Under the pieces are notes generated by a model. That model searched no databases and was not told the origin of the DNA. It saw nothing but the letters and a program-made list of their open reading frames with translations. From contig QPMI01000416.1 of NCBI GenBank assembly GCA_004431415.1, positions 248,001-312,000 of the forward strand: a DNA stretch of 64,000 nucleotides, given 5' to 3'. This stretch comes from Cyanophora paradoxa CCMP329 (lineage: Eukaryota; Plantae; Glaucophyta). Below are positions 13,690 to 56,446 of this stretch, piece by piece. Position numbers and translations under genes: made by a program. Numbering within the stretch: position 1 is the stretch's first letter; every line of letters begins with the position of its first letter.

Positions 13690-14056
13690 GACCGGTTATC
13701 GCCGTTAAGGATCAATCTGAATAATATAATTTCTCAAACATTGTTAGCGCTACGTAACCAATCCTATCCCGTAGGCTCAAAACTTCTTCATTTTTATGGA
13801 GGCGTTGTAGAGCGAAGTGAAATATCCATAGGTAAATCACTTTAATCACCTGTTCTACCGGGTTCAGTGGTAGAAACTTGCAGCCGACAAGTGAACCTTC
13901 TGGGTATCGGTGGCTTTATCATTTTTCCAGCATCTTCTTTCGTACTGGATGCTCTGCAATCGGACCAAAATTTGACAGGAGTTTATTCGCTATATACAGA
14001 CAGAAAAACTACTTAAAGATTTCTTAACATATATTAAGAGAGTAGAAAAGGACAAC

Positions 14057-14314
14057 ATGCCAATCAGTGAGGCTCAGAAGCGTGCTACTTATCGTTATCG
14101 TAAAACTGAAAAAGGTCAGGAATATTTGAAAAAGTACAATGCCAGATTTGCAAAGCAAATGCGTGACTTATACCATACTGATGAGTGTTACAGAGCCATG
14201 AAGATCGTTGAGAGTTCCCAGCGTCTCTATGCTTCCAATGCAGTCTGCTTTGTGAAGTATCTCTATGGTGTCCCGTATTCTAACCGTGGTCGCAAATCGA
14301 AATATCTCTGTTAA
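14057..14314 (+). CDS. Small basic protein, possibly DNA-binding
   Basis: MPISEAQKRATYRYRKTEKG; upstream of the polymerase and preceded by AAAATTTGAC and CTTAAAG motifs. Confidence 0.65.
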   Translation: MPISEAQKRATYRYRKTEKGQEYLKKYNARFAKQMRDLYHTDECYRAMKIVESSQRLYASNAVCFVKYLYGVPYSNRGRKSKYLC

Positions 14315-14555
14315 TCGTTTTTCTCAGCGCGATCTGCTCTGAGAAACCCGTGGGAAACGCGCTGGAACCACAAATATAATCATTCTGTTATTTTTAGAGT
14401 TCGATGATCGAGCCAACCCTTTGTTATTTTTATGAATGCCCTCGACTAAATTTATTTTGTTGGAGACTTTTGGTTTTGTCGGTAAAATTTGACGCGAGTA
14501 TAAAAGTATTTAAAGAAAACTTTTGTAGGTATATATTAATAGAGTGAACAAAGAA

Positions 14556-17500
14556 ATGCCTCGACCAAGTAATCGAATTTCGAAAAATTTGCAGGATGAG
14601 ATTCTTGGCTACTACATGCAAGCAAAAGTAGAAGACAAATTGACCCGAGAGCAGGATATCTATTTCTTGAGAGAATTTACTTTCAAAGCAATTAGAATTC
14701 CAAAGTTGATTGATATCAGAGATACACTGAGAGGTATCGTAGAGCCTCGTTTGTATCGCAAGCAGGAGAAGAAGGAGAAGAGGGCTGAGAGAGCCGCTAA
14801 GAATGTTGAGAAGCAAAACAAGAAAGCGGAGCAAGCGAGAGAGCGGAAGCGCTTGACTCCTTTCCAGCAGATGATTGCTAACCTCCGTGAGTTTGTTGAA
14901 AACTCACCTGGAAACATGGTCACCCTGAATGTGAGACTCTTCCGTGAGTTGCAAGAGGGAGAACAAGCCCCTGCAAATGCAAACAGGGTCACTGAGAATG
15001 GTGTGACCTACATTGAATCGAAGAGGCTTCGGAACAATCGCCCCTTTGGTATCCAGTGTACCAAGGCAGCTTTTCTGAATGCTCTCGGTCTGGTTCAATC
15101 CACCTTCAATACGTTCCCATGTGTTGAGGGGACTGTCATTGCTGAATTTATTGCAGCAGTTATTGAGTTTAACTCGACCAATCAAGATTTCCGCTACCTA
15201 AAACTAATTGAGCAAGATACCTACCCCGATATTATGACAATTGAAAGAGTCATCACGACAGATAATGAAGAATACATCCCAAGAAATGAACAAGTCCTCA
15301 GAGACAATACAAACGCTCCAATGATTATTTCGAATTTCATTAAAAACGAAGGGAACCCCCAAGCCACCACATTCAAGGAAATGTTCTTGAAAGGTGATTC
15401 ATTCAAGGTTGGGAAGTGTGTTTTCGATGTCCTCATCAAATGGTTTGGAGGAGCGTTTGAGAAGGCTAAGACCAAAGGGAAATACAAGCGAATCGATTGG
15501 TCTTACAACGGACTCTTTAAGATGGTGAATGGGCGAGACCCTGTTGAAGGAGATGATTGGGGCATTTCTTTCAAGTCCATTTCGGAGAAGGTTCTTGACC
15601 CACTGCGCCTAGGCATGGTTACAATTGGAAAGGACGACAGAACCCCTGTCCCTGAACTGACTTTCCTGCCCAAGACCAGGAACACACACTTGACCCCTTC
15701 TGTTGCATATGTGAAGATTGAGAATGGTCACATGTATTTGTTAAATCACAATATTAAGGCTCTCACACAGTCCTTCAATGGCTCCAAGCCAAAAGATACC
15801 GATGTTCCACTCAGTTCTCGTTACAAGATTATAAAGCAAAGAAGGTTCAAGGAGTTTGCCACAAATCCCGATGACATTCTGAGAATTGTCAGGTCTGACA
15901 ATCCAAAGAACCAATCGAGCATTCGAATCTGCTATGGTGGTTCACTGGATGAACTACTCAGAGAGTTCATTGTGGTGCATAATTATCAGGTCCAACCTGG
16001 GTTCTCCCAAATCGGAAAGGCAACCCATATTCGTTTCACTATTGACGATAAGGATGTTGTCGTGACCCCACCTGGTAACGATACAGATGTGGAAACAGCT
16101 TTCGAGATTAGCTTCAAGAATGCTGAGTACAGAGATAAATTCGAGAAACTAAATCTGGATATGTATAGGTCTCTAATCAACACTTCCAACAAGAGTACTT
16201 ACAATGAGCAAACCATAAATGCATTCAAGAATGGAGTGCAGACTGCCCTTCGTGGTCTCTTTGATGTGGATGAGGAGACCTTTGATGAAATTCGCTATAA
16301 CACAGATATTTACGAGTTCGATATGTGCAAAGCATACCCTTACATTGTAGCCTTGATGATCAAATTCGTTCCTGTTCTCAGCAAGTTCGATGTCTTCAAG
16401 AGTGTGACAATCACAGATGCAGAGCAAATCGAGGAATACAGCTTCTATTACGTGAAACTGGACGACAAATACTTTTTCAAAGCCAAAGACAAGAACGGAA
16501 AGGAGTACGAAGCAAACACCTACAACAGATACAAGAGGATGATCATTGATTCCAAGTACAATGTTGTTCCTGGTTTGGTTCTCAAAAAGCATTTCGAGGA
16601 TTTCAAGGATGACATCTCCATCAAAGCGGTTCTGCGACCTTACAAACTCATTCCCAACCTTGCAGGCAACACAGTTGCTCGAATCTTAGATAGCGACCTC
16701 GATCCTGTTGATAAGAAGCAGATCTTGGTGAGTGCAATTGGGCAAACTGGAAAGCAACGAAATAGCAGAGTGAAAACCACCATTTTCCACAACAGAGACG
16801 ATGCGATCGAGTTCCAGAAACAGAACGGAGGGGAGGTTAAAATTTACCTCTTTGGTGAGACTCTTGCCACTTATGAGGAGACAGAGTTCGTTCTGTGTGA
16901 GGAAGAGATGACCGAACCCCATATCTACTATGTCAATCAGGTAGCAGAAAAGCAGCTCATTGATGGCTTCATGCCATTGTACACTACCCTCTTGTCAATT
17001 ATGAGGATGTGTATGTATGAGAAGTGTGTCGAACTCGCTAAACAGCAAATCCGACCACTCGCTTTGAACACCGATTGTGTTTATGGGATCGCTTATGAAC
17101 CCATTGCCCCAGTGTCATTCGATCGCAATGCCTTTGAGAATATTGGAAACTTCAGTGTGAAATGCTGCCCCAATTTTTCTAAAAAGTTTTCAGGTGAGAA
17201 GAAAGACCTCGAGGCAAAACGAATTCGTTACGGAAAGTTTGAGAGAGCGACTGACTTTGTGAAAATCGAGAACTACAGTTATACCAAACACTCTGTGGTT
17301 GATGAGTATGACACAACCGCGATTTGTGATTTGCTGGCTACACAAAAACGATGGGTTCTTCTCGGAGTAGTTCCGGGAGTTGGAAAGACTTACATGACAG
17401 TTGATTATGGGAAGCGTTTCCAAAATCCCCTCTACATTGTTCCCACCAATAAGCGAGTGAAAGAAATGAAAGAGCAAGGATTGAAAAATGTAAAGACAAT

Positions 17501-18624
17501 CTATGATGCCCTTCACCTTAAAATTGATGAGTCAAACATGGATGAAATTGTAGGAGGAAATGCCTCTGGTTTGGTAGAATTTGATTGCATTGTTATTGAT
17601 GAGATCTGTCAGTTTAAGATTGGGGAACTGGCAGCCTTGGACCACATCATGAATGAGCAGTTCCCAGATAAGGTATACATCGCCACAGGGGACCCGTACC
17701 AAAACCCACCCATCCAAGATATGAGTGTTGACCAAGATGAGTATTACCTCGATATTCTCCATCGCCTGTTCCCCAACGAATTGTTACTCCAAGTGAACAA
17801 GCGACATGAGACTGAGGAAGATCGCAGAAAGGTTGAGCAGATTCGAATCGATTTGTTCGAGAAAGGTTTGAGTGTAAGTGAGGTCCTTGCGAAGTATGGG
17901 TTCAAGGTTGTGGACGAATTGTGTTTACACAAACCGCAAGGGTGCAGAGGTGAACCTAGCCCTTCACAAAATGAACTACGGGGATAATGTTTCCATTTAT
18001 GCTGGCGGCATCAAAGTTGTTGCAAAGACTCGTATTGCAAAGGGCGGAAAAATAGTTCATAATGGATTTGTCTACAAGATTGTCAAGCTCTCAAAGGACA
18101 GTTTCATTATTGCTGACATTGCCAACAAGAAGGATGAGATTGTTCTCAGCAGGGATGCAGTCAAACATTTCGCCCTGGCTTATGCAAACACATGCCATGT
18201 TGTTCAAGGTGATACTATTCGCTGCAAAGGGAACAGGGTAGTTGTGTTCGAAACTGGGGCGCCATTTGTGTCAAAGAAGTGGCTCTATGTTGCTCTCACA
18301 CGAACCACAAGGCTGGATGATGTCGTTATTTACCATGATAATTTCGAAATGGCTCACTGGAAGGTGTGGAAGAGAGAGAATAACGAGAAAATATCGACTT
18401 ACAAGGATCAGGACCGAGCAGCAAACAGACAATTCGATGAGCATGATTACATCACATGGGATTGGATCAAGCAGCGATATGGGAAGCAGTATGGGCATTG
18501 CCTGCGATGCTACAATGCCATGGACTTTGAAGATATTTCGGTAGATCGAATTAATAATGCTGTGGCTCACGTTACCAAAAATTGTTTCCTCTCTCATATT
18601 AAGTGTAACTGCGCCGCCCAATAA
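14556..18624 (+). CDS. Fusion of OTU-like domain, PolB polymerase core, SF1 helicase and C-terminal HNH/Zn-like domain (frameshift near 17920)
   Basis: GKCVFD...NGHMY (Cys/His); PolB motifs FDMCKAYP, KQILVSAIG, LNTDC; helicase motifs GVGKT, IVIDE, GDPYQNPP, NKRH, TCHVVQG, YVALTR; C-terminal CLRC...SVDRINN..H...N...CN. Confidence 0.85.
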
Positions 18625-19683
18625 TGGATAGTGTATTATCATTCAAAAAGTATAGGCAGAAACTGATTAATGAAAAAGTGAGTTTTGATGAAAAAGAGTT
18701 GAAAAAGAAATTCAAAAACTCAGAACTCCAACAAATCTACAAGAAACCAAGGAAACCCAAATCGTTTCTTCGCATAGTGGCAAAGCCTAGATCGTTTCAA
18801 ATCGATATAACATATTTCAGAGGGTTTCAGACTGCCAACAATGGCATTTTCAAAATGCTTAGTTTCGTAGACATACTTAGTCGCAAAGGATTTGTTTATC
18901 CTTTTAAAAACAGCAGTGAGATCCCGAGTATTTTAAATAGGTTCAAGCAAGAAGCAGGCAAAGTTAATGCTCTCTCTGGGATAATGAGTTCTCCCAAGCA
19001 GTATACCGAAATTGGTGCAGTGAACATGGTGTGATGCTTTACACAGATGTGGCAAAGGATGACCACATCACAGTAGGAGATAAACTGGGGATTATTGATA
19101 GGTTCACTAGGACTTTCAAACAGTATCTCAGAAAAACGATGACAGCAAAGGGAACCACGAAATGGATCGATCTACTTAGTGATGTTATTGACTTGTATAA
19201 TAGCAGTCCCCATTCGGCATTGAAAAATGACTCACCGAATGCAGTGTATACAAATGAAGATAAACAGTTATTTATTTACATGAGAGATACTGTTCACAAC
19301 AATCGTGTAAAGGAGGCTGATACTAATCAAGTGAAACCAGGAGACACAGTTCGAGTTTTGCAACCGAAGGGTTATTTGAAAAAGAAGGTGCGCAATTCAG
19401 TCAGAAGGTCTACACTGTTGCAAAGGCTGATAGGAATCGTTTCAAAGTGCTTGAAGATAATGATGGTGAGGAAACGAAAGAAGTGAAGAGGAGATTTAAG
19501 AAGCAAGAATTGCAAAAGGTGAATAAAGATGATATCATAAAGATCCCATCGCAAAAAAGAATTCAGCAGGTTAATAAGACGAATAAAGTGAATCGATTGG
19601 TAGCAAAGGAAGGCATAAAACCCAATCGAAGTAATGTTGTAAGGAGAAGATACAATCTGAGAAGTGGTTTAACGAAACGCTAA
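18624..19683 (+). CDS. Retroviral-like (rve) integrase with two apparent 1-bp frameshifts
   Basis: FQIDI, FVDILSRK, (G)DNEF, GIIDRFTRTFK, YNSSPHS..P, GDTVRV. One extra G at GGG 18978-18980 and one at 19369-19371 join the three ORFs. Confidence 0.9.
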
Positions 19684-19684
19684 A

Positions 19685-20088
19685 TCATGGGAGACACGGC
19701 GGATAAAAAGGAAATAACTTCGATTAAATATAATTAATCGAGATTATGATATAACTTCGATAAATAAGATTTAAGATATAACTTCGATTAATTCGATTTT
19801 TGTTACTGAGGCTTACTGAGATTACTGTTGAATACGAATAGGGTTACTGGGAATGGTTTGTTTTTCTTGGGAATTGTTTTGGAGACAAGGCGCATAAAAA
19901 AGATATAACTGCGATAAGATATAATTAATCGAGATTATGATATAACGTCGATTAATTAAATTTTTGTTACTGAGGCTTACTGAGATTTACTGATATTCAA
20001 GATTGGGTTACTGGGAATGGTTTGTTTTCTGATTTGTTTTTGATTTTTTTGCGGGTATTTTTTTGGAGACACGGCGCAGTGCTGAGCT
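19685..20088 (-). repeat. Right terminal inverted repeat of element 2 (404 bp)
   Basis: Reverse complement of 8613-9016. Confidence 0.95.
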
Positions 20089-37400: not shown

Positions 37401-37761
37401 GTGTTGATATTAATGCGGTCCTAAATTAATGCGTTTTAATTTCATTGCAGAAAACGCATTAATTAGGTACCGCATTACTTAATTATAAGTGCGCGCATTA
37501 CTTAAGTGTTTTACGGTACTAGTAGTACTGCGGGGCCAGTGCGCCGGCGGGGCACTGCGAGCCGCCGGCCCGGCGCCGGGCCCAGTGCGGGGGCAGCGGC
37601 CCGGCCGCGGCAGCCGAAGGCCCGAAGCTGGAAAAGCCTGGAATACTGGTAACCACTGCTAACCGTTGAACCAGTGGTAAGCGGCTCGAGCTCGGCGCTC
37701 GCTCCCTGTCTACCGTGGTACTGTATAGCAGCCTATATATATTAGTAGTCGCCGGCCTTAA

Positions 37762-45643: not shown

Positions 45644-45942
45644 CACACATAGAGAAAGCCCGCGTTTTATCCCTCGGCAAAGTTTAATTATATTTTGTTT
45701 ATATTTTACCTATATTTATTGCATATTTAACGATAATTTATGTGTATTTTATCCTTTATTCTTGTCTTTTATGTGCGTATTTCTTATAAATTACTATCCA
45801 AACCCTTACTGTTATTTAATTTACTCGTATCTCCGATGTATTTCACCTCTATCTCTCGTAATCACTTGTATTTGAGGTGGATTTTAAACTTAGTTAAATT
45901 ATATCACGCCTCCTGATAAAACGCGGGCTTTCTCTATGTGTG
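45644..45942. repeat. Perfect 28-bp inverted repeat pair around an AT-rich spacer
   Basis: CACACATAGAGAAAGCCCGCGTTTTATC (45644-45671) and its exact reverse complement (45915-45942). Confidence 0.92.
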
Positions 45943-46128
45943 ATATTACGCATTATCGTGTATAATGATATGGAAATAATATGGGTATGCATTTAATGAA
46001 AAATATGTATTTAATTATACAAGAAATATGTATGAAATTATAATGGAATTCCAACGAAAAATAAAAAAATGTTCTTTGCGCTTGCGCAAGGCAAGCTTAG
46101 CGTGCCGCTGGATATAATGCGATGATGA

Positions 46129-46460
46129 GTCGTCAGACAAGCTGCCTTGGCTGCGCCTATGGAGCGCATATGGCGCCGTTGTAAACAGCTACAAGTCGTC
46201 AGACAAGCTGCCTCGGCTGCGCCTGTGCTGTAAGGAGCGTGGAGCGTGTATTATAAGAAAGATAAGTTAGTATTCTATATAGATCTTCTGTTATTATAAT
46301 GGTATTTCCTATGTGTAACAGGTGTAACAGGTTCATCCCAAACTTTCCCCTAGGAGGAGGTCGGCGGTTTGGAACTTTGGGATTGACCTGTTACACCCGT
46401 TACAACGTAAACAACTATAAGTCGTCAGACAAGCTGCCTCGGCTGCGCCTGTGCTGTGTG
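46129..46460 (+). repeat. Three ~30-bp direct repeats
   Basis: GTCGTCAGACAAGCTGCCT(T/C)GGCTGCGCCT at 46129, 46195 and 46421. Confidence 0.9.
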
Positions 46461-46664
46461 GGAGGCGGAGCGTATAATACAATAAAGATAACGTAGTATT
46501 ACTTATGGTATATTATGTTATTTTAAGACTGAGATTATGTTATTTTAATGGGTTCTTACTGAAAATGGTATGTGTAACAGGTGTAACAGGTTCATCCCAA
46601 ACTTTCCCCTAGGAGGAGGTCGGCGGCTTGGAACTTTGGGGAGAACCTGTTACACCTGTTACAC
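46314..46664 (+). repeat. Two tandem ~92-bp iteron hairpins
   Basis: TGTAACAGG x2 ... CCTGTTACA x2 at 46314-46404 and 46572-46664; the second has a 22-bp perfect outer stem. Confidence 0.92.
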
Positions 46665-46828
46665 CACACTTAAATACTATAAATTAACCTGTTACATCTT
46701 CTTTTACCACTTATTACCGTGTCGGAAATCTCGATACTTTATGTCTCTCCGTATGTGGAGATCCACCAAAGATACCTATTATCCTCTCTTCTATTAACGA
46801 TGATATATTACATGTCTTTCGCTCGTGC

Positions 46829-46912
46829 AAAAAATGAAAGTCCCGTGAGCTACACAAATTGATTTAAGGAAGTTGCGATATAGAGGTGTAAGAAAGAAAA
46901 TTATTTTCTGTG
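46829..46912 (+). promoter_or_regulatory. Duplicated promoter-like block, copy 1
   Basis: AAAAAATGAAAG...GCTACACAAA.TGATTTAAGGAAGTTGCGATATA is repeated at 47546-47633; each copy precedes an ORF. Confidence 0.7.
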
Positions 46913-46930
46913 TCTAATATAAAAGCAAAC

Positions 46931-47539
46931 ATGTCTTATCTGTTCAATGGTCAAATCATCTTCTCTGTTCGTATTCGTGATATTCCGTTTTCCGTCGGTG
47001 AAATGCTGGAAATTATAAATGCTATCCATCATAACGGAAGATTAATAGGCAATTCACCCACTTATTCTGATATGCGGGGTGTCGGTTATTTCATGCATAA
47101 ACCTCATCAAATAGTTGTTAGACATGTTGATGATCGGTTTTACATTGCGAAAGCCATTGAGCCTATGGGAAATATTAAATTCCTTGTAAGACAACTCCGT
47201 TATGATGAAACAGAGGATGAAGAATATGTAGAAATTGTCAATTTCTGGCGACATGTCCGATGCACTCAATATAAGGTATCTGATGTCATGGATGTAATTG
47301 TAAGAGATTACGGTAATCAGATGCAACCACGTTATTATTTTAAAGTAAATCGTGATCTCTCGGTTTATCATCGCAAGTTTGAAGGGCATAACTTAAAGTT
47401 AACTACCCGTGCATCGGTTCGTGAATTCTTAAAAGCCAATGGTGCCGCATGGAGTCGTGGACATCGCATGTGGTATATTGAAGAAAAGGACAAAGTGGGT
47501 ATAGTGGGCGACATATTCAGTTTGATTGATCGTGATTAA
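46931..47539 (+). CDS. Hypothetical protein with C-terminal DUF5710-like motif
   Basis: REFLKANGAAWSRGHRMWYI resembles the K..GA.W....WY motif. Confidence 0.6.
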   Translation: MSYLFNGQIIFSVRIRDIPFSVGEMLEIINAIHHNGRLIGNSPTYSDMRGVGYFMHKPHQIVVRHVDDRFYIAKAIEPMGNIKFLVRQLRYDETEDEEYVEIVNFWRHVRCTQYKVSDVMDVIVRDYGNQMQPRYYFKVNRDLSVYHRKFEGHNLKLTTRASVREFLKANGAAWSRGHRMWYIEEKDKVGIVGDIFSLIDRD

Positions 47540-47545
47540 TAAGGC

Positions 47546-47633
47546 AAAAATTGAAAGCCCCGTGGGCTACACAAAATGATTTAAGGAAGTTGCGATATAT
47601 AGGGGTAACAAAGAAAGAGAAAAATTTTTCCGT
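47546..47633 (+). promoter_or_regulatory. Duplicated promoter-like block, copy 2, containing AAAATTGA
   Basis: Exact AAAATTGA at 47547-47554, upstream of ATG 47645. Confidence 0.7.
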
Positions 47634-47644
47634 GACGTATTACA

Positions 47645-47923
47645 ATGTCGCGCGCTGAAATGTTTAAGGAGATCTCCGATATCATGGAAGCCGCTGAATA
47701 CTTCTATAAAGAAAACGATACCCTTTACCCTTCTCTGTCTCAAATTGTAGCGATCGGTTTCTTAGCTGATAGACCCGACCGACTGTATGCAAAGAGTGAT
47801 GAAAACCACTTTTTCCACTATCAAAAGCAAACTTTAAAAAGAGGAAAGGTGGAATACAATGTTAAAGCACTGTTTAACTTTGGTGGTGAGTTCATCCCTC
47901 TCATCGAATTCAAAAACCACTAA
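47645..47923 (+). CDS. Hypothetical protein
   Basis: 92-aa ATG ORF downstream of the duplicated promoter block. Confidence 0.6.
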   Translation: MSRAEMFKEISDIMEAAEYFYKENDTLYPSLSQIVAIGFLADRPDRLYAKSDENHFFHYQKQTLKRGKVEYNVKALFNFGGEFIPLIEFKNH

Positions 47924-48831
47924 TCAATACCTAACGCTAAAAATTCCAACTGGAACGAATTATCGATACCGTTCATATCTACAACATCACCATAATAATC
48001 ACGAAACTCTACCGTTAACTCATTAATCACCAAATTTCGATCGTTTATTTTTATGTATTCGCCATGCTCTCCGCTATGGTAGATATACTTCCCGATGTCC
48101 TGACTTAATTGTAAACGCAAAATTGCGCCTTGGTTCTGTGGTTGCGATCGTGGGACTATATTATGGTTTGCCGCAAATGTGGCAATTTCTTTAATGTGCA
48201 TATAAATGTATTGTTCAGCGTTCATGTCCGCCATCTTTGGACTAACCGCTTTAAAAGCCATCGGCGCCGCTACTAACTCCGCTCCCTCGAATGTTATCCC
48301 CCACTGTGGGTGATCTGGTGTTATCGGAGTCCCCGCATAAAATAAGATATTTTCGGGAGCATATAAAGACCTATTATTATCTATTATCTGTGCTGCGCTT
48401 CCTAATAATGTTGTTGCACTGAGACCCAATAACTTAGCTATCCTATTGTTTCCTGCGATGAGTTCAAAAGCATAATTACTATAAAACTCTAACTTGTATG
48501 TCGTCGGATTGTAGTAGATCTTAAATAATATATTGTCAGTAACGGCGTAATTCAAACCGTAATTATACGGCTGTGTCACACCAAAGTGTCCTTGGTTTAT
48601 GTAACCACTCGGTAATGGGTATACTTGCTGATTAAGATAAACACCATCAATATTGTATCGTATAGTTATAAAATCGGTTCCTATTGAATTATAGATACTG
48701 TTCGGAATCTCAGCATACAAAACGCGACATTGCCGCGGTTTGGTTATTGGTCTTGTGAGTGCAACCCTATAAGAGTTTTCTTTTTGTCCTTGTTGTCGAT
48801 CTCTACTATCGACATTGATAAGACGAATCAT
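47920..48831 (-). CDS. Minor capsid (penton-like) protein A
   Basis: LINVDSRDR...YRVAL...AEIPNSIYN and LTVEFRDYYGDVVDMNGIDNSFQLEF. Confidence 0.8.
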   Translation of the reverse strand: MIRLINVDSRDRQQGQKENSYRVALTRPITKPRQCRVLYAEIPNSIYNSIGTDFITIRYNIDGVYLNQQVYPLPSGYINQGHFGVTQPYNYGLNYAVTDNILFKIYYNPTTYKLEFYSNYAFELIAGNNRIAKLLGLSATTLLGSAAQIIDNNRSLYAPENILFYAGTPITPDHPQWGITFEGAELVAAPMAFKAVSPKMADMNAEQYIYMHIKEIATFAANHNIVPRSQPQNQGAILRLQLSQDIGKYIYHSGEHGEYIKINDRNLVINELTVEFRDYYGDVVDMNGIDNSFQLEFLALGID

Positions 48832-48860
48832 TTTATTATATGAATATACATTAAAGAAAC

Positions 48861-49871
48861 ATGCCGGTCGAATATGTCGAAGTTTCATCATTTAGACAGG
48901 CTCCTAATCTCGATGCGCCGACGTCTAAGTTTATCGCTGAATTACCAAAGATGTATGAGAATGTAAGAGCTGTCCGACTTGTTTCGGCGGAATTCTATAA
49001 CTCCATTCCTCTTATCAGCGGTGAAAGTGTCCCCGGAGATGTCACAGTTAATGATTCTTTCACTATTAATTTTAGTATCGCTAATTCAGCTATCAACTCT
49101 ACCAATGCACCCGCTCCCGGTTTCGATGTTTGGCGCTCGATTCGTCCCGGTCAAAATATCGGAAGCACAGTAATTAATACGCATCAGGAACTGGTTAACC
49201 GTATAAATACTCGTTTTGCTGGGGCTACACCCGATCCTCAAATTAGGTGTAAATGGGAAACCGAAAATAAACGCGTAATATTCTATGCTCCACATGAATT
49301 TTACATAGCATTCACGACTGCTAAGGATCCTTCTAGTTCGATGGCTGAAAAGTCAAACCGACACGGTCGTATGCTTGGTCTCGATGCCGGAAGAGCCGGT
49401 AACCGTTTCATCAAATCTAACATTTACTCAACTGAATATGATTCAGTTTTTACCGGTGCTAATGTTCATGGTATCATCTCTACATTCCCTACTGAGAGTT
49501 GCAAAGATAACGTATTATTCGTAAGAGTGAAAGAACTGGGTGACCTCGTTCAGTGTTCCGATGGTCTCCTATCTGGATATTTCCATAAACTCGTTGTGCA
49601 AGATAAAGACTTTGCGGAACACGTTGTTTATAACTCAACAGAAGCAAACCCGTTATATAAATATTATGGTAAATCATTCTCTATTTCTCAATTGTCCGTA
49701 GAAATTGTGAATGCTCAAAACGAATTAATTGATTTCGAAGGGCAACCTGTGCATTTAACTTTCGAGATCCGATATGGAAATGAGCCCGCCGGTGATCCTA
49801 TTTATGAGTATTTCAAAATGCGGATGGCGGAAACGCATCCAAATTATCCGGTGATTTGCAATTTTGGATAA
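48861..49871 (+). CDS. Minor capsid (penton-like) protein B
   Basis: F..ELP..YENVRAVRLVSAEFYNS and ISQLSVEIVNAQNELIDFEGQPVHLTFEI; same family pattern as protein A. Confidence 0.75.
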   Translation: MPVEYVEVSSFRQAPNLDAPTSKFIAELPKMYENVRAVRLVSAEFYNSIPLISGESVPGDVTVNDSFTINFSIANSAINSTNAPAPGFDVWRSIRPGQNIGSTVINTHQELVNRINTRFAGATPDPQIRCKWETENKRVIFYAPHEFYIAFTTAKDPSSSMAEKSNRHGRMLGLDAGRAGNRFIKSNIYSTEYDSVFTGANVHGIISTFPTESCKDNVLFVRVKELGDLVQCSDGLLSGYFHKLVVQDKDFAEHVVYNSTEANPLYKYYGKSFSISQLSVEIVNAQNELIDFEGQPVHLTFEIRYGNEPAGDPIYEYFKMRMAETHPNYPVICNFG

Positions 49872-49922
49872 TTAAGGATCATTCACAGAATTTTTATATT
49901 TTATTATTGTAAAAGAGAAAAC

Positions 49923-51323
49923 ATGGACGTCACGACAACCCTCCAACGTCTTTCCCTCAAAGAGGCGCTAACCACCCCCGAAGAGGCGAAGGCGTTCTTC
50001 CTCGATAACTCGCTTATGCTTGGTCTGGAATCGAAGACTAAACCCGTTCTCGTTACTGTTAGCCCATCGACAACCTTCCCTAACAACGCTGCGCAACGAG
50101 TAAGTTTCAAACTTCCACGTTACAACTTCATCGGTAAGCTGGAACTCGCTTTCGATCTAAGCGAAATTGCGGGTTTCATCGGTGATACCGATCTTGTTCG
50201 TAATGGTTATGTGCGCCCCGTCGGCGCTCTTGTAGAGCGTCTCGAAATCTCGTATGGCTCTTACCTTTTCACTGTGCCTTCTGATTTCCTCGCTCACTTC
50301 CCTCTGGTTTATTATTCGGAGGATCAGCTAGCGAAAAAGAAACGTTCGGCTGGTTTCCTACACGGCATCCCACAACACGGAACTAACCGACTTGGTGGGT
50401 CATTCTTTGTGGAAATCCCGGTTCCGTGGTTAAACAGTTACCTACCACTTGGCGCGCTCTCAGGCGAAATGGTAGTTACCGCATGGTTCCGTGACCCCGC
50501 TAAGGGTGGATTCATTGAGACTTCTTATGGTGGTCGCGCTCTTCCGGTTGTAGGTGGAACCGCTGCCGATCAAACCGCTAATGACGGTCTCGGAAACGCT
50601 ACTAATGTAACCCTTGCTAATGTCGGTCAAAACATCACAACTGGAACCATTACCGGTCTGTCCATTCCATCATCTGCACCCGTGGATACTATTATGATCA
50701 CCAACCCACGCCTTTACATGCATGCCGTCAATGTTTCCGATGAGCTGTTTGCTACGGTCATTGAGAAGGTTAAGACTACTGGTATTGCGATTCCGGCTAT
50801 CGACATCGGCTACGTCGATGCTTTCGATGTTGCCGCCAACGGCAATAACCAACCTAACCGTATTAACATTAGCCAAATGTCGGGGCTTGCTTTCGCTCTT
50901 CTATTCTCGGTTCGTGACTACCTTAAAACCGGTCAGGATAACAGCGGCTCCCACAGTGTCCTTAAAACATATGCGGACTCGAAGGATATCACATACACGG
51001 TGGAGATTAACGGACAGCGTCTTTATTCCACGGAGCCTATCCCACTCCTCAAAGGTGCGGAACTCATCGCCGATGCATTCAAGTGTTCTAACATGGATAA
51101 GGAAGCTAACCGCTATGTCCTGTCCGGTCTTCCGTTCTGTCTGGACGGAGAGAAGGCAATTCGTAACATTGCCCAAAGTGGTTATGTCGATCTAACTAAC
51201 TCCTCATCAAGTTTCCTAACCCTCTACGTCCCACAAAACATGCGCCTTACTGTTAACGTGCGCGCTCTCATGCACACGATGCTCATAGCGGACCGCGATG
51301 GTTTAAGAAGGGTAAATTTGTAA
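49923..51323 (+). CDS. Major capsid protein
   Basis: Shares blocks with the other MCPs: LKEAL, FKLPR, VPSDFL, VEIP, MSGLAFALLFSVR, GYVDLTNSSSSF; followed by the ATPase. Confidence 0.82.
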   Translation: MDVTTTLQRLSLKEALTTPEEAKAFFLDNSLMLGLESKTKPVLVTVSPSTTFPNNAAQRVSFKLPRYNFIGKLELAFDLSEIAGFIGDTDLVRNGYVRPVGALVERLEISYGSYLFTVPSDFLAHFPLVYYSEDQLAKKKRSAGFLHGIPQHGTNRLGGSFFVEIPVPWLNSYLPLGALSGEMVVTAWFRDPAKGGFIETSYGGRALPVVGGTAADQTANDGLGNATNVTLANVGQNITTGTITGLSIPSSAPVDTIMITNPRLYMHAVNVSDELFATVIEKVKTTGIAIPAIDIGYVDAFDVAANGNNQPNRINISQMSGLAFALLFSVRDYLKTGQDNSGSHSVLKTYADSKDITYTVEINGQRLYSTEPIPLLKGAELIADAFKCSNMDKEANRYVLSGLPFCLDGEKAIRNIAQSGYVDLTNSSSSFLTLYVPQNMRLTVNVRALMHTMLIADRDGLRRVNL

Positions 51324-51405
51324 TAAGCACTGTGTGTGTTTGTTACCATTATTTAGTCATATTTCGTTATTTTTATCTGGCTTTATTAAGAAGATCTACA
51401 ACACC

Positions 51406-52188
51406 ATGGATGATGTCCCCGAATTTAACGCTGGCGAAATGATTAAACCACCATTTCGCGTCCTCGCAATCGGAAAATCGGCTACGGGTAAGTCGGAAGC
51501 CGTTAAATACTGGCTAAAACAGTTACACGATGAGAAAAAGTTAGATGTTGTTTTAGTTGTAAGTGGAACCGCATTTAATCATTTCTGGAATAATGTAGCT
51601 ACTATACAGCTCGGTAAATGGGATGCTCCTTATATCGCTAAACTTCTCGATGAAAGACAAGAGAAAATAGAGAAAGGAGAACCCGTTAACCAATTGTGTG
51701 TAGTTCTCGATGATCTTATAGATAATGAGTTAGTCGACCTTACCCGCGATAAAATTATTGGTTCTCTGTATTCGCGTGGTCGCCACTCAAATATATCCAT
51801 TATCTGTATCACACAGAAACTGCGTAAGGTTTCTTCCACTATTCGCGTTAATTCGGATTATGCAATGTTTCTTAGCGCCGCTAATCGGAAAGAACTCGAA
51901 GCAATAGAAGAAGAATACAATATAATAAGAGATAAAGACGCTTTTTATAAGATGTTTGAGGAATACGTGCATTCCTACCAATTCCTCATTTGGTCATCCG
52001 CTGATTATTCGGTAAAGTATTATGTAGATAAAGCGGATCTCGTTAAAAACTTTGGATTTCCGCGGTTCCATCGCAAACCTAAAAAGAAAGAAGACGAATT
52101 AAAACCACCTGAGAAGGAGGAAGCGCCAAAAGAAATTAAAAGCGCTATTCATACGAATAAATTGATGCGATATAAGAGAGGACTTTAA
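51406..52188 (+). CDS. A32/FtsK-like DNA packaging ATPase
   Basis: GKSATGKS, VVLDD, RGRHSNISIICITQ, IRVN. Confidence 0.93.
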   Translation: MDDVPEFNAGEMIKPPFRVLAIGKSATGKSEAVKYWLKQLHDEKKLDVVLVVSGTAFNHFWNNVATIQLGKWDAPYIAKLLDERQEKIEKGEPVNQLCVVLDDLIDNELVDLTRDKIIGSLYSRGRHSNISIICITQKLRKVSSTIRVNSDYAMFLSAANRKELEAIEEEYNIIRDKDAFYKMFEEYVHSYQFLIWSSADYSVKYYVDKADLVKNFGFPRFHRKPKKKEDELKPPEKEEAPKEIKSAIHTNKLMRYKRGL

Positions 52189-52216
52189 AATTATCTTCCA
52201 TATAATTAAAGATACA

Positions 52217-52948
52217 ATGCCGCCAAAACGTAAAGTAGGTGTCCCCGCTGGGGCTATTTCATATTCCGGTGGTGAAAGTTACGGGTCACTTAATACTACA
52301 CCTATGAAATTCGATGGAGTTAATCAAGTGAAACCATCGCAACCGGAAGAAGATCCCTTAAATGCCGCTTATGAAGAATCGCCGGCGGACAAAGCGCCGC
52401 AAGCATCGACAAGTGAAACACTCAATGTATCACCGGATGCATCGAAGATGAAGGCGGTCGGTGAGGGTGCGCGTCGTATTATCGGTGCCGCTGATGATCG
52501 CGGTCTTGGTCTACAAGATCTTGCACTTGCTCGTAAAGGTCAAGGTGTTTCGAAAGAATCGGACAAGGTTATACAATCGATGGCGGGAGAAGTAACTTAT
52601 AAAGTCGCTCCGACTCAAAACGTCCACCGAATGCCAAAGGCTGAATGGGACACAATGACCGCTAAACTACGCGATCTCGAAGCTAAGTCAAGTGCGCTAG
52701 AACAGTATGTAATGGAGAAGAAAGAACGCGCTAAAATGAAGGAAATGTTACGTAAAGAGGTTTTCCGTATGGGAATTACGGGACTTCCTGATACTCAATT
52801 TATTCGGAAGAAAGAGACACAAATAGATGAGCAAGCGGTGGATGAAATGAATACCAAAAAGAAGGGAACCATAGAACCTGGCGCTACCAAAGCGGAAGTA
52901 GAGAAAGCCGTAGCACCAACAGTATACAAGCGGAGAGTTTGGCTTTAA
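52217..52948 (+). CDS. Hypothetical protein with N-terminal NLS-like PPKRKV and coiled coil
   Basis: 243-aa ORF with an AT-rich upstream region, in the capsid block. Confidence 0.7.
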   Translation: MPPKRKVGVPAGAISYSGGESYGSLNTTPMKFDGVNQVKPSQPEEDPLNAAYEESPADKAPQASTSETLNVSPDASKMKAVGEGARRIIGAADDRGLGLQDLALARKGQGVSKESDKVIQSMAGEVTYKVAPTQNVHRMPKAEWDTMTAKLRDLEAKSSALEQYVMEKKERAKMKEMLRKEVFRMGITGLPDTQFIRKKETQIDEQAVDEMNTKKKGTIEPGATKAEVEKAVAPTVYKRRVWL

Positions 52949-52971
52949 AATTTATATATCTTTATAGAGAC

Positions 52972-53226
52972 ATGGACTTTTTGCAAAAGATCATAGAGAT
53001 GTTTAATATCCACGTGGTTAGCAATTGCCACAGCGGGTGCTGTGATACAACCGTAGAAGTGGGTTTTTCAGACAACGAAGATAATGAGACAGAAGGTAGA
53101 CGATCCCGAAGAAATTCAAATGTTTCGACTGGTTCGCGACCACCTACACCGGAACAGGGTCGCCGGTTTTCCGTAGATAATAGCGATGATTTACGAAGGC
53201 AAGCGTTTGATTATCACGGTAATTAA
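52972..53226 (+). CDS. Small protein with SxCxxxCC motif
   Basis: MDFLQKIIEMFNIHVVSNCHSGCC; TATATA upstream. Confidence 0.55.
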   Translation: MDFLQKIIEMFNIHVVSNCHSGCCDTTVEVGFSDNEDNETEGRRSRRNSNVSTGSRPPTPEQGRRFSVDNSDDLRRQAFDYHGN

Positions 53227-53428
53227 AATATTTGTAATAAGTATCGGAAAATGCTCGAAGAAGTCTATAATATTATTTTAGCGAAACGTCAGATTTACGC
53301 CATTCAATCTGCGATAGAAAAACGTAGACAAGAGCTTGTTCGGTCGCCAAAAAATGACAACCCTAAAAGTATTTAAAGAAACAGCGATAATACAAACTGA
53401 TAAAATATTTTCTGTGCTGAAAGTAAGA

Positions 53429-54742
53429 ATGGCTGCTATCGCCGATGATGTTAGCGTAATTGAATTCGAATTCGAAAGTGACAGCGATGAAATTGTTAAC
53501 TCACCACCAAAGGTTAAACTTAATCCTAAGAGTGCCGATGGGTTAAATTATCGGATCCGTGAAGTGCTGAGACTGCGAAAGAAGTATGAGGAAGACCCCG
53601 AATACCGTGAATTCAAAAATCGGTTTAGTCGTCCGACCTTTTTCGAAAGATTGGATACAGTGCCTAACATTATCGGTTTCACTAATGGTGTTTTCGATCT
53701 TAACACTATGACCTTCCGTAAGGGAAAACCCGATGATATGGTTAGCAAGACCGTAGGCTATGAATTCATCGCTGCCGACCGTCAGAAAATCGCTAAGATT
53801 CAATCCATCTATGCTGATATTATCGAAGATCCCGATGAGCGTAACTATATTATCGGAGCGCTTGCTTTCGCTCTCACAGGTCGGACTGATATCCAAAAAT
53901 TCAATTTCTGGTCTGGAAAAGGTGCTAATGGTAAATCGCTACTGCAAGAAATGGCTAAGAAAACATTCGGCGATTACTACGGCTCGATCAGTATGAGCTA
54001 CTGGACAAAGCCTAAAAAGAATTCATCAGATGCTACGCCCGATCTTGCCGCAATTCTTGGGAAGCGAATCGTATTCAGTAACGAAGCGGAAGATGGCGAT
54101 AAGTTGCAAATCAGTAAGATTAAGGAAATCACAGGTGGAAACGAAATGAAGGTTCGCGCTCTCTTTAAGGATCCCGTCGCCTTTATTCCGATGTGTCAAA
54201 TCTTCCTATCCACCAATGATAACCTTTCTCTCAGCAAAGCTGATGAAGCCATATTACGTCGGCTCATCTATTGCACATTCAAGAGTGTCTTTAAGCCGAA
54301 TCCTAAGGAAGGTGAAAAGAAAGCCGATATTACCCTTATGCATCTTCTCGATGACGACGAGTATAAAATGGCTCAAATGTCTATATTCTTGGACATGTTT
54401 AGAACGCAAGACCTTGCCGACCTTATGCAAAATCCGCCCCAATCTATCATCGATTACGGATCGGAATATTTCGCTGAAAATGATAAGATCGGTGAATGGA
54501 TCAGAAATACTTATGAAAAGACAGGAAACCGTGATGACTTTGTTTCAAGTGATTCTATCATGAAGAAATATAGACAAGTGGATGATAAGGCGGAACCGAC
54601 AAGCATCGGTAAACGGATGCGCGAGATATTTAATGTTAAGTCTGAGTCTAAGCGCGAAAGGGGCGCGGTTATTCGTGGATATTATGGAATCAAAGCCATA
54701 ATTCACCATAACGAATTTGTGGATGATGATGTAGAAGCGTAA
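53429..54742 (+). CDS. D5-like superfamily 3 helicase lacking a primase domain
   Basis: IGFTNGVFDL (D5_N), GKGANGKS Walker A, FSNE, IKEITGG, STN, ILRRL; C-terminal winged-helix-like RGYYGIK. Start chosen at the ATG after the promoter-like motifs. Confidence 0.9.
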   Translation: MAAIADDVSVIEFEFESDSDEIVNSPPKVKLNPKSADGLNYRIREVLRLRKKYEEDPEYREFKNRFSRPTFFERLDTVPNIIGFTNGVFDLNTMTFRKGKPDDMVSKTVGYEFIAADRQKIAKIQSIYADIIEDPDERNYIIGALAFALTGRTDIQKFNFWSGKGANGKSLLQEMAKKTFGDYYGSISMSYWTKPKKNSSDATPDLAAILGKRIVFSNEAEDGDKLQISKIKEITGGNEMKVRALFKDPVAFIPMCQIFLSTNDNLSLSKADEAILRRLIYCTFKSVFKPNPKEGEKKADITLMHLLDDDEYKMAQMSIFLDMFRTQDLADLMQNPPQSIIDYGSEYFAENDKIGEWIRNTYEKTGNRDDFVSSDSIMKKYRQVDDKAEPTSIGKRMREIFNVKSESKRERGAVIRGYYGIKAIIHHNEFVDDDVEA

Positions 54743-54844
54743 ATATAAATGAATTGAATGATTGCTTTCTTACTATTTTTTATAACCTTACTGTGTATGG
54801 TAAGAATTAACAATGTAACAGGTGGATTTTTGGTTTTCAGTCTC

Positions 54845-54937
54845 GTGTAACAGGTGTAACAGGTCTATCCCAAAGTTCTGACCTCTGACCCCCCTCCTAG
54901 GGGAAAGTTTGGGATGAACCTGTTACACCTGTTACAC
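54845..54937 (-). repeat. Third iteron hairpin, inverted relative to those at 46314-46664
   Basis: Reverse complement of 46572-46664 with substitutions; homology extends over about 54812-54981 vs 46528-46700. Confidence 0.92.
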
Positions 54938-55097
54938 ATACCATTCTCAGTAAGACCCCTTTAAAAACATAAAAACTCAGTGTGAATATCCTTATTAATA
55001 TAATTTGTAGTGTTTTATTACTATAATCTGTAAAAATTGAACAAGATATTTAAGCATTTATTTGTTTGACTATACGAAGTTCTCTACGAAGTTATCA

Positions 55098-55352
55098 ATG
55101 GCTACCCGTAAGTTTGCTTTCGAAATGACCGATGAAGAATTAGACCAAAACATAAAACAAGAAATTACCATGGAAGCAACAGCGGAATATTTAAAAAGGG
55201 TATTCGGTTCTAATCCGTTATTGGAAACAAAGAAACGCCGCACTCATGTTATCAAAGCGAATAACGTCCAACTTAACCTTATACTTCCTGAGGGCGTTAA
55301 AGTGCGCATTCGTGGAGTTACCGTTTATGATCCGAAATGTGTCCAAAAGTGA
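55098..55352 (+). CDS. Hypothetical protein
   Basis: ATG ORF preceded by AAAATTGA (55033-55040) and TATTTAAG. Confidence 0.55.
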   Translation: MATRKFAFEMTDEELDQNIKQEITMEATAEYLKRVFGSNPLLETKKRRTHVIKANNVQLNLILPEGVKVRIRGVTVYDPKCVQK

Positions 55353-55410
55353 AATAGAAATGCTCAAAAATCTATTAAACCACAAAATAAAAAAGATTTT
55401 ATTAGTTTTT

Positions 55411-56316
55411 TCAACCTTGCACAATGTAACGATCGCTGCATATTCTAATTCGTATACTTGCCAATTTAAAATGTTTTTTTAACAATTCAACAACTTGTTC
55501 GATTGTATACGCCACTGAACAATTAGTATCACGATCCCATAAACAATCTAATTGTTTCGGAATATCTCTACGTTCCCATGCGACTTTGAAATGTAAGCGA
55601 ATTTCAATACGTGGACATTCCATGTATTCAGCGAGCCATTCAAGGAATTGCTTCCTTTCAGCTCTGAATTTATCTATATCGTGTTTTCTCATTTTATCCA
55701 TGTTTGGAACAAAGTTTTCACACCAAACTACAAACTTTCTCGCATTTGCCTGATTAATAAGCTGTTGTTGTTCCCATTCTTTCTGTCTCTGTTCCCATTC
55801 TTCCTGTCTTTGTCTTCTTTTTTGTTCTTCTTCTTGCCGTTTCTTTTCTTCTTCTTGCCGTTTCTTTTCTTCTTCTTGCCGTTTCTTTTCTTCTTCTTGC
55901 CGTTTCTTCTCTTCTCTTTGCCTTTTCCTCTCTTCTTTTGCTTTTTGTTTTCTACAATGATTACAATAGTCTTCTTTACGGTTCCAATGCCTTTCCTCAC
56001 ATTGATGACATAAGTCACCTCTGTGTTCTTCTGGCATGAACCGTTCTATACAATGATTTCCAACCAAAACGATAATTTTCTTTTCGACATGCAATATATA
56101 ACATTGCTCTTCTATGTGATGAGAACAGGCACATTTATTATGTTTTGGAGGAAGGTTTTCAATTCCTACATTATAGTGTGCAAGTTTAGCGCGTATCCGT
56201 TTCATATTATGCTCACTTCCCAACTCAACATAATCTAGGAAGTTATCAGAACCACATAGGTTACGTAAAGTCTCTTTTAACTGTTCGAGATAGCTATTTT
56301 TCTTTTCTGTTGTCAT
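55411..56316 (-). CDS. Zn-binding, coiled-coil protein with DUF5710-like C-terminus
   Basis: CACSH.I...C...VGNHCI and CxxC...CxxC motifs; KKRQEEE repeats encoded by a 21-bp tandem repeat; FKVAWERRDIPKQLDCLWD. Confidence 0.7.
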   Translation of the reverse strand: MTTEKKNSYLEQLKETLRNLCGSDNFLDYVELGSEHNMKRIRAKLAHYNVGIENLPPKHNKCACSHHIEEQCYILHVEKKIIVLVGNHCIERFMPEEHRGDLCHQCEERHWNRKEDYCNHCRKQKAKEERKRQREEKKRQEEEKKRQEEEKKRQEEEKKRQEEEQKRRQRQEEWEQRQKEWEQQQLINQANARKFVVWCENFVPNMDKMRKHDIDKFRAERKQFLEWLAEYMECPRIEIRLHFKVAWERRDIPKQLDCLWDRDTNCSVAYTIEQVVELLKKHFKLASIRIRICSDRYIVQG

Positions 56317-56446
56317 TTCTGTTTCTCTGTATGTGTTACACATAAAATGTTTTCTCATCTGTCAATTTTTGAGTTGTCTTTAAATACGTTTCTACATTTT
56401 TAAACGCGTTTCATTTCCGAAAAAATAATGTTCCTATAAAGCAAAG

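What the first reader, a model, noticed from the sequence alone, without database searches (positions are those of the whole stretch)
13967..56386. Giant-virus-like promoter grammar upstream of non-structural genes
Seen: exact AAAATTGA at 47547, 55033 and 56362-56369 (minus); variants AAAAAATGA at 46829 and 53349, and AAAATTTGAC at 13967 and 14484. Each is near a YTTAA(A/G)G-like motif (14012, 14509, 46863, 47580, 53372, 55049, 56378). CTTAAAG also precedes three element 1 genes on the minus strand (1228, 1835, 6281). I did not see the pair before capsid genes. Established: AAAATTGA is the Mimivirus early promoter motif. Inference: these PLVs may use a co-infecting giant virus's transcription machinery (virophage-like lifestyle) and act as inducible antiviral elements.
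Basis: partly seen in the sequence, partly recalled or inferred. Interest (0 to 1): 0.75.

Follow-up and report, generated by a model that had tools for sequence, protein, structure and literature searches.

The report
Giant-virus-type tandem promoters in algal proviruses
Small DNA viruses integrated in an algal genome (likely the glaucophyte Cyanophora) carry two short sequence boxes in front of several replication and accessory genes but not in front of their capsid genes; both boxes also stand before genes of giant viruses, so these proviruses likely borrow a giant virus's transcription machinery, a lifestyle already shown for related viruses of other algae.

Summary
All cited motifs are at the stated places. 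The window holds endogenous polinton-like viruses; the nearest capsid protein is from Cyanophora paradoxa. Label-free, the pair box A (AAAAW1-2TGA) plus box B (YTTAARG) precedes 5 of 30 genes (shuffles 0.06) and 0 of 11 virion genes. The exact mimivirus octamer alone is not significant (2 of 30, p about 0.08), and three further copies lie in coding or host DNA. Box B is the stronger signal. It is usually followed 9-19 nt later by TATA. In IMG/VR giant-virus loci A peaks at -70..-40 and B at -40..-20; the two are independent but sit in tandem before some genes. A free PLV contig has the same grammar. Best reading (0.55): two stacked giant-virus-type promoters, early plus post-replicative, read by a helper's polymerase. 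Against it: polymerase-less chloroviruses have a similar two-box layout, B peaks in prasinovirus-like loci, and a sister element appears in putative RNA runs. Helper dependence and antiviral effect are untested. The early-box idea is published (Gezel-14T), and this scan noted it before on other genomes. The stacked B box and the glaucophyte host are the increment.

The parts
13967..14034 (+). Promoter of E2 ORF 14057 (85 aa, unknown): box A AAAATTTGAC (about -89), box B CTTAAAG (-45), TATA 11 nt after B
14484..14535 (+). Promoter of the E2 polymerase-like/SF1-helicase gene (14556-18624, frameshifted in this assembly): A about -71, B TTTAAAG -47, TATA 14 nt after B
   Evidence: PolB-type motifs recognised by eye (recalled), AAA_19 and UvrD_C_2 by Pfam
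46829..46885 (+). Promoter of ORF 46931 (202 aa, unknown): A -101, B TTTAAGG -68, TATA 9 nt after B
47544..47602 (+). Duplicate (90% identical) of the previous promoter, before ORF 47645 (92 aa): exact AAAATTGA -98, B -65, TATA 9 nt after B
   Evidence: (D14)
53349..53378 (+). Promoter of the D5-type primase-helicase (likely start 53429): A AAAAAATGAC (contains AATGACA) -79, B TTTAAAG -57, no TATA
55033..55054 (+). Promoter of ORF 55098 (84 aa): exact AAAATTGA -65, short B TTTAAG -49
56362..56384 (-). Promoter of ORF 56316-55411 (Cys/His-rich, unknown): B -68, then exact AAAATTGA -53 (reversed order); shares a 130-nt gap with the divergent pPolB gene, whose own strand has neither box
   Evidence: a sister copy skips gene plus boxes (joint 55333-56403)
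1205..1234 (-). B box (CTTAAAG, TATA 19 nt later) about 103 nt before the E1 pPolB gene (start 1132); no A box, only TTTTTTGA at -135
1819..1841 (-). B box plus TATA (12 nt later) 94 nt before E1 ORF 1747
6281..6287 (-). B box 36 nt before the E1 HNH-AP2 gene, no TATA
1..6450 (.). Element 1 (runs off the left end; 50% GC): pPolB, A32 ATPase, MCP, probable minor capsid, HNH-AP2
8613..20088 (.). Element 2: 404-nt TIRs (99%), 6-bp target duplication TCTTGT, ATPase, MCP, probable minor capsid, polymerase-helicase, rve integrase
45640..64000 (.). Elements 3+4, likely one PLV running off the right end: two probable minor capsids, MCP, ATPase, D5 helicase, pPolB, HNH, C1q fibre; left boundary approximate

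Best explanation
Two boxes, AAAAW1-2TGA and YTTAARG (usually followed by TATA), stand upstream of several replication and accessory genes of these integrated polinton-like viruses and are likely two separate, stacked giant-virus-type promoters, which would be read by the RNA polymerase of a co-infecting giant virus. Box A would be the early box. In ASFV its homologue AAAATTGAAT is thought to be read by the virion-packaged early factor. Box B with its TATA 9-19 nt downstream would be the core and initiator of a second, post-replicative promoter, built like the poxvirus intermediate promoter (AT-rich core, about one helical turn, initiator). Stacking would start helicase/polymerase expression at once and keep it going. 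Virion genes sit behind 2-82-nt AT-rich gaps ending at the ATG, like giant-virus late genes. Shown: the motifs, their enrichment, their occurrence in giant-virus and free-PLV contigs. Any antiviral effect is analogy only.
For: Label-free enrichment of the pair, 5 of 30 vs 0.06, and of B+TATA, 5 of 30 vs 0.19. TATA follows B in 6 of 9 promoter sites vs 2 of 25 other viral sites, and composition shuffles give 1.3 (p=0.0008). Long AT-rich non-coding stretches (TIRs, left end; 3.6 kb) hold no sense-paired boxes. Independent giant-virus loci: AAAATTGA precedes 36 of 291 genes vs 5.1 shuffled in long-MCP loci, peak -70..-40, and 30 of 469 vs 10.6 in poly(A)-polymerase loci. YTTAARG peaks at -30..-21 in short-MCP loci (15 vs 1.2; 38 of 414 vs 19.9 overall) and precedes a VLTF3 gene. 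A and B do not co-occur above chance in giant viruses (odds ratio 1.0), and A-B spacing in the window varies from 16 to 45 nt with one reversal, as expected for two independent promoters. Stacked A+B occurs before SWIB-domain and neighbouring genes in L214 (found without the motif) and L378. L378 lies in a giant-virus bin that encodes Rpb1; pair counts there are 13 vs 5 control. Free PLV L377 (MCP related at hhalign 95%; primase-SF3 helicase) has A+B+TATA before two genes (one was the search hit), A next to its helicase start and neither box before its capsid gene. No RNA-polymerase or TBP family hit among the ORFs scanned. Precedent: Gezel-14T and Tetraselmis PLVs.
Against: Chloroviruses have no RNA polymerase but carry AATGACA at -60..-90 and ARNTTAANA at -15..-45, the same two-box layout (PMC5294985, PMC3946568). 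B is clearest in the short-MCP, prasinovirus-like loci and is not enriched overall in long-MCP loci (15 of 291 vs 17.9; 41 of 469 vs 30.4). 4 of 7 A boxes end in TGAC vs 7 of 119 in giant-virus loci (p about 4e-4). Both pPolB genes lack a sense A box, and element 1 has none. The class split on recognisable genes alone is weak (A p=0.11). No clear TA initiator at a fixed distance after A. Contigs 80-90% like element 2, one of 5.5 kb, occur in three putative RNA runs of two studies; their RNA status is a guess and strand is unknown. Rpb2 was not found in G001. No giant virus of glaucophytes turned up in the literature search.
Confidence: 0.55

Rival explanations
1. Host-read promoters of autonomous nuclear viruses. 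Host Pol II/TBP reads B as a non-canonical TATA box and a host factor binds the TGAC-type box A, as is presumed for chlorovirus early genes. Most copies are kept silent by CpG methylation.
For: The layout matches chlorovirus promoters (PMC5294985, PMC3946568). TGAC bias. B lies 36-103 nt from the ATG, leaving room for a start site 30 nt downstream. B peaks in prasinovirus-like loci (that these lack a polymerase is recalled). A sister element is in putative RNA runs. Cryptophyte PLV capsids are expressed without a detectable giant virus (PMC12220804). C. paradoxa methylates and silences viral-origin genes (10.1101/2025.04.15.648976).
Against: The chlorovirus strings themselves are mostly absent (AATGACA 1 of 12, ARNTTAANA 0 of 12). 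Divergent virion genes are separated by only 29-52 nt. Two Maverick-like loci with a related polymerase show a conventional TATAAAAG box in GC-richer DNA instead (L450, L451). AAAATTGA is enriched only in the long-MCP loci.
Confidence: 0.25
2. Resident helper. The factors come from another viral element already in this genome (an endogenous giant virus, a dwarf nucleocytovirus, or the reported TFIIB-carrying 48-kb element), working with host or viral polymerase, so no outside infection is needed.
For: Giant endogenous viral elements are reported in C. paradoxa (10.1101/2025.04.15.648976, passages). Unchecked scan notes describe transcribed mriyavirus-like copies and a TFIIB-carrying element in this genome (leads only). 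It would allow sister-copy RNA without infection.
Against: No genome was available, so no resident early factor, TBP or polymerase was seen. The same grammar occurs in a free environmental PLV.
Confidence: 0.13
3. Compositional coincidence picked out after the fact in AT-rich intergenic DNA.
For: The exact octamer alone is not significant (159 of 2000). Half of the exact copies are off-promoter. The degenerate definitions were chosen on this window.
Against: Pair 0 of 2000 shuffles; TTAAAGA passes a look-elsewhere check. Both boxes are independently enriched at fixed positions in unrelated viral contigs.
Confidence: 0.05

Closest known systems
Gezel-14T (PgVV-14T), PLV virophage of Phaeocystis globosa virus (10.1101/2022.07.28.501842; passages read)
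   Same: PLV without its own polymerase; the helper's AAAATTGA early motif stands upstream of recombinase, TVpol/helicase and three other genes; AT-rich intergenic gaps.
   Different: There helper and co-expression are shown. The passages read describe no second box. Different host and capsid lineage; here only 3 of 7 boxes are exact.
Endogenous Tetraselmis PLVs reactivated by TetV-2 (10.1101/2025.10.09.676808; abstract and passages)
   Different: Induction and yield reduction were measured there. The word search found no promoter analysis of those PLVs ('promoter' 2 occurrences, both about EMALEs).
Chlorovirus promoters AATGACA + ARNTTAANA (PMC5294985, PMC3946568, PMC7019647; passages; the original paper PMC2582218 was not held)
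   Same: Two boxes at about -60..-90 and -15..-45; a TGAC-containing early box and a TTAA-containing proximal box.
   Different: The strings match poorly (1 of 12, 0 of 12). Chloroviruses are large, autonomous and presumed to use host Pol II.
Poxvirus intermediate promoter and ASFV early/late promoters (PMC12917281, 10.1101/2021.07.26.453801; passages)
   Same: AT-rich core, about 12-bp spacer and initiator; ASFV early core AAAATTGAAT.
   Different: The poxvirus initiator is strictly TAAA and its core has no consensus. Here the candidate initiator is TATA, the spacer 9-19 nt, and no start site is mapped.
Antarctic metagenomic PLVs scanned for WWWWWTGWWWWW (PMC11502894; passages)
   Same: Early-motif matches were used to predict giant-virus dependence (6-19% of PLVs by clade).
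   Different: Only the early box was scanned; no host was known.

Membership tests
Polinton-like virus | Double jelly-roll major capsid protein | tested here: met
   A profile of the MCP with relatives hits PBCV-1 Vp54-type capsids (E 2.5e-13); the three window MCPs align
Polinton-like virus | A32-type packaging ATPase | tested here: met
   Pox_A32 over cut-off in three ORFs
Polinton-like virus | Minor capsid (penton) protein | tested here: inconclusive
   Four 290-340-aa ORFs next to the MCPs; only a weak DUF5901 hit; the label rests on position and recalled N-terminal pattern
Polinton-like virus | Terminal repeats, integration and own replication enzyme | tested here: met
   E2: 404-nt TIRs, TCTTGT duplication, rve_3 (below cut-off), SF1 helicase; E3/4: D5 and pPolB; E1: pPolB. 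E1 and E3/4 run off the window
Virophage-lifestyle PLV (Gezel-14T type) | Helper's early motif upstream of replication genes | tested here: inconclusive
   Present before 2 of 6 recognisable replication/mobility genes (both as variants), absent before both pPolB genes; helper unknown
Virophage-lifestyle PLV (Gezel-14T type) | No own RNA polymerase | tested here: inconclusive
   No hit in the ORFs scanned, but two elements are incomplete in the window
Virophage-lifestyle PLV (Gezel-14T type) | Replication only with a giant virus, and lower helper yield | not testable with these tools
   Needs infection experiments; no helper known
Virophage-lifestyle PLV (Gezel-14T type) | Silent without helper | tested here: inconclusive
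   A diverged E2 sister is in three putative RNA runs; contigs give no strand, level or start
NCLDV early promoter (AAAATTGA) | Core sequence within 150 nt of the ATG | tested here: met
   3 exact and 4 variant boxes at -53..-101; degenerate form enriched, exact form alone not
NCLDV early promoter (AAAATTGA) | TA initiator about 10 nt downstream and early expression | tested here: inconclusive
   No fixed TA position in window or giant-virus sites; timing not testable
Poxvirus intermediate promoter | Strict TAAA initiator 12 bp after an AT-rich core | tested here: not met
   TATA, not TAAA, 9-19 nt after B; works-like only
Chlorovirus promoter pair | AATGACA and ARNTTAANA strings | tested here: not met
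   1 of 12 and 0 of 12; geometry alike

The most novel reading that the evidence does not exclude
YTTAARG-N9-19-TATA is an undescribed second promoter class shared across giant-virus orders, the counterpart of the poxvirus intermediate promoter. Polinton-like viruses copy the stacked early-plus-second layout that giant viruses use for a few genes. The Cyanophora elements then carry the promoter signature (AAAAW1-2TGA[C/A] then YTTAAAG) of a still unknown giant virus of glaucophytes, which they would parasitise and help the alga resist.
Probability: 0.3. Interest if true: 0.68.

Novelty: new member of a known kind. Interest (0 to 1): 0.42.

Why it matters
How most integrated polinton-like viruses are transcribed, by the host or by a helper giant virus, is open. 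These promoters give a sharp test, because the two readings predict different start sites (at the TATA 9-19 nt after box B, or 25-35 nt after it) in a culturable alga. If the helper reading holds, the motif pair is a search key for a giant virus of glaucophytes, for which the literature search found none, and box B would fill the missing middle promoter class of giant viruses. The basic idea (early box on a PLV means virophage lifestyle) is already published.

Tried and rejected
No whole genome was held, so host promoters and sister copies could not be analysed. No RNA holder was listed for element 3. Putative RNA runs laid only 7, 3 and 2 short or diverged contigs on 44001-64000. On 1-20000 they left element 1, most of the host piece and long near-identical element-2 copies without cover. 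Contigs show presence, not absence, so I do not count this as silence, though it fits poorly with plain DNA carry-over as the source of the sister contigs. Close relatives with flanks were not found: MCP queries, ATPase alignment, ORF 56316. Protein searches gave one MCP at 59%, none for the E1 MCP, 52 distant MCPs without context and one polymerase. The first pattern scan returned mostly chance matches in AT-rich contigs. The last scan gave 120 matches, 23 outside ORFs and ahead of a gene; it is selected on the motif and gives no frequency. Of 57 loci with a related pPolB I inspected 12; the 3 with a complete 5' end have neither box, so the boxes are not simply inherited with this polymerase family (small n). 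An element-encoded TBP or transcription factor was looked for and not found: no Pfam or PHROG hit, the model of ORF 46931 was unusable (pLDDT 43), and the Atlas was not available. ORFs 46931 and 47645 share a promoter but BLASTP shows no similarity. Sigma-70 promoters and terminators were at chance level. Literature: 'ttaaag'+'promoter motif'+'giant virus' gave 0 papers; a prasinovirus/ttaa search gave nothing relevant beyond PMC5294985; glaucophyte-virus phrases gave 0. Supplements were not read; those of PMC11502894 (virophage and giant-virus late motifs) and Extended Data Fig. 6 of the Gezel-14T preprint may already show box B.
Full report
What the window is. A GC-rich eukaryotic stretch (about 60% GC at 20-45 kb) carries three or four AT-richer viral inserts. 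Element 1 (1-6450) has pPolB, A32 ATPase, MCP and HNH-AP2. Element 2 (8613-20088) has 404-nt TIRs, a TCTTGT target duplication, ATPase, MCP, a polymerase-like/SF1-helicase gene and an rve integrase. The block 45640-64000 has MCP, ATPase, D5 helicase, pPolB and fibres and is likely one element. The MCP profile hits PBCV-1-type double jelly-roll capsids. The nearest MCP (59%) is an EukProt protein of Cyanophora paradoxa, so the host is likely that glaucophyte. Many diverged sister copies lie in DNA runs of the same organism.

The observation. All coordinates are correct. I defined 31 gene starts and took 130 nt upstream. With my class labels, box A (AAAAW1-2TGA) precedes 7 of 12 non-structural and 0 of 19 other genes, and box B (YTTAARG) 9 of 12 and 1 of 19. 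Those labels were partly circular for unknown ORFs, and one 'other' gene proved to be an HNH nuclease. On recognisable genes only, the split is A 2 of 6 vs 0 of 11 (p=0.11) and B 4 of 6 vs 1 of 11 (p=0.028). Without labels, and dropping the duplicated promoter at 47544, dinucleotide shuffles of the same regions give: exact AAAATTGA 2 of 30 (not significant), A 6 of 30 (3 of 2000 shuffles), B 9 of 30 (0 of 2000), pair 5 of 30 (0 of 2000; mean 0.06), B plus TATA 5 of 30 (0 of 2000). TTAAAGA (8 of 30) exceeds the best 7-mer of 300 shuffles. B also occurs antisense in 6 of 30, partly because it is nearly palindromic. So the grammar is real, B is its stronger part, and the exact mimivirus octamer is its weakest.

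Anatomy. A lies 53-101 nt and B 36-103 nt before the ATG; A-B spacing is 16-45 nt and once reversed. TATA follows B by 9-19 nt in 6 of 9 promoter sites against 2 of 25 other viral sites (composition control p=0.0008). Recognisable virion genes have upstream gaps of only 2-82 nt, divergent pairs 29-52 nt. Element 1 has B only. The E4 pPolB has neither box on its own strand.

Comparison with giant viruses. I drew two samples from IMG/VR that were not selected on the motifs: 80 loci around a viral poly(A) polymerase and 78 loci around capsid genes, of which 57 were grouped by an MCP tree and N-terminal sequence and 21 without a usable MCP left out of the group counts. The labels 'Imitervirales-like' (long MCP) and 'prasinovirus-like' (short MCP) are my inference and recall, not tool labels. 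AAAATTGA is enriched in the long-MCP group (36 of 291 vs 5.1) and the polymerase loci (30 of 469 vs 10.6), at -70..-40, but not in the short-MCP group (8 of 414 vs 5.8). B shows the opposite: a sharp peak at -30..-21 in the short-MCP group (15 vs 1.2), only a small bump in the others (15 of 291 vs 17.9 overall; 41 of 469 vs 30.4). TATA follows 51% of 73 promoter-position B sites against 30% of 30 far-upstream ones. A and B are statistically independent in the polymerase loci (odds ratio 1.0), yet stacked A+B promoters occur before SWIB-domain and neighbouring genes in L214 and L378. L378 belongs to a giant-virus bin with an Rpb1 gene; there A precedes 11, B 3 and the pair 2 of 39 genes read. 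B precedes a VLTF3 gene in L223; that VLTF3 is an intermediate gene in vaccinia is stated in PMC5294985 (A2L). A free PLV contig, L377, has A+B+TATA before two genes and neither box before its capsid gene; one of the two sites was the search hit. Three elements with a related pPolB have neither box.

Mechanism. The variable spacing, the reversal, the B-only promoters and the independence in giant viruses point to two separate promoters and not one bipartite site. A resembles the early box, thought to be read by the packaged early factor in ASFV (10.1101/2021.07.26.453801). B plus TATA resembles in build, not in letters, the poxvirus intermediate promoter (PMC12917281). I take as most likely (0.55) that a giant virus with its own polymerase reads them, as shown for Gezel-14T (10.1101/2022.07.28.501842). 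How an integrated nuclear copy is reached by a helper's machinery is not addressed by anything I could test.

Results against this. Polymerase-less chloroviruses carry AATGACA and ARNTTAANA in the same two positions (PMC5294985, PMC3946568). The window's A boxes lean to TGAC (4 of 7 vs 7 of 119). B is strongest in the group that, by recall, lacks a polymerase. Contigs 80-90% like element 2 are in three putative RNA runs from two studies, including a 5.5-kb contig that matches the MCP start, the minor-capsid gene and ORF 12949 at depth 29-41. These cannot show strand, start or level, and may be read-through or DNA. Cryptophyte PLVs are also expressed without a detectable giant virus (PMC12220804), and C. 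paradoxa has endogenous giant-virus regions and methylates viral genes (10.1101/2025.04.15.648976). Host Pol II (0.25) and a resident helper (0.13) stay open; chance (0.05) is largely excluded. Nothing here tests an antiviral effect.

What was read. Passages by word search of all papers cited; in addition the first 10,000 characters of PMC5294985 and the abstract and outline of 10.1101/2025.10.09.676808. Passages of PMC11788076, PMC11502894, PMC10120064, PMC11464507, PMC7019647, 10.64898/2026.07.28.741278 and 10.64898/2026.10.09.758095 were also seen. No supplements or figures.

Novelty. The early box on PLVs, and inducible algal PLVs, are published, and earlier notes of this scan report the same on other genomes. 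My searches found no description of YTTAARG-TATA as a giant-virus or PLV promoter; its nearest printed relative is the chlorovirus ARNTTAANA. Verdict: a real feature, a new member of a known kind, with a modest new element and a clear test. Interest 0.42.

Noticed in passing
window 46310-46404, 46569-46663, 54842-54936: Palindromic TGTAACAGG blocks near the left end and right after the D5 gene. A DNA contig joins 46417 to 54602 on opposite strands, so the 46.5-55 kb block is arranged differently in sister copies and elements 3 and 4 are likely one virus.
   Followed up: partly
window 55334-56402: ORF 56316 together with its A and B boxes is skipped in a sister copy: a gene-plus-promoter cassette.
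   Followed up: partly
downstream of stop codons in E2-E4: TTTTTAT follows 6 and TTATTTT 7 of 23 stops within 100 nt vs 1.2 shuffled. This recalls the pacmanvirus 3' motif WWTTTATTTTTTAWW (PMC11788076), but it could also be part of the next gene's promoter.
   Followed up: partly
window 11722 and 11877: The two frameshifts in the E2 capsid gene are not shared by most short-read contigs, so they may be assembly errors and the element may be intact.
   Followed up: no
window 11950-13086 and 18416-19633: A diverged sister of element 2 is present as contigs in three putative RNA runs; in the DNA run two of its joints have about single-copy depth.
   Followed up: partly
window 13788 and 13919 (minus strand): Two orphan AAAAATGA boxes in the 13690-14056 gap, pointing antisense into ORF 12949, with no ORF behind them.
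   Followed up: no
window 14556-18624: A long ORF with PolB-like motifs (by eye) fused to an SF1 helicase, frameshifted near 17950.
   Followed up: no
last 130 nt before many ATGs: AAAGAA precedes 13 and AAAGAAA 10 of 30 starts, above the best word in 300 shuffles; likely a purine-rich leader.
   Followed up: no
window 6622-7151, 8372-8612, 20084-20383: A host kelch-like gene piece is duplicated around the element 2 insertion site.
   Followed up: no
L377 (IMG/VR contig, 21 kb): A free PLV with primase-SF3 helicase, SET domain and two methylase-like genes and the same promoter grammar.
   Followed up: partly
L054, L214, L378: Stacked A+B promoters recur before SWIB-domain genes in three giant-virus contigs (two were found by the motif).
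   Followed up: partly
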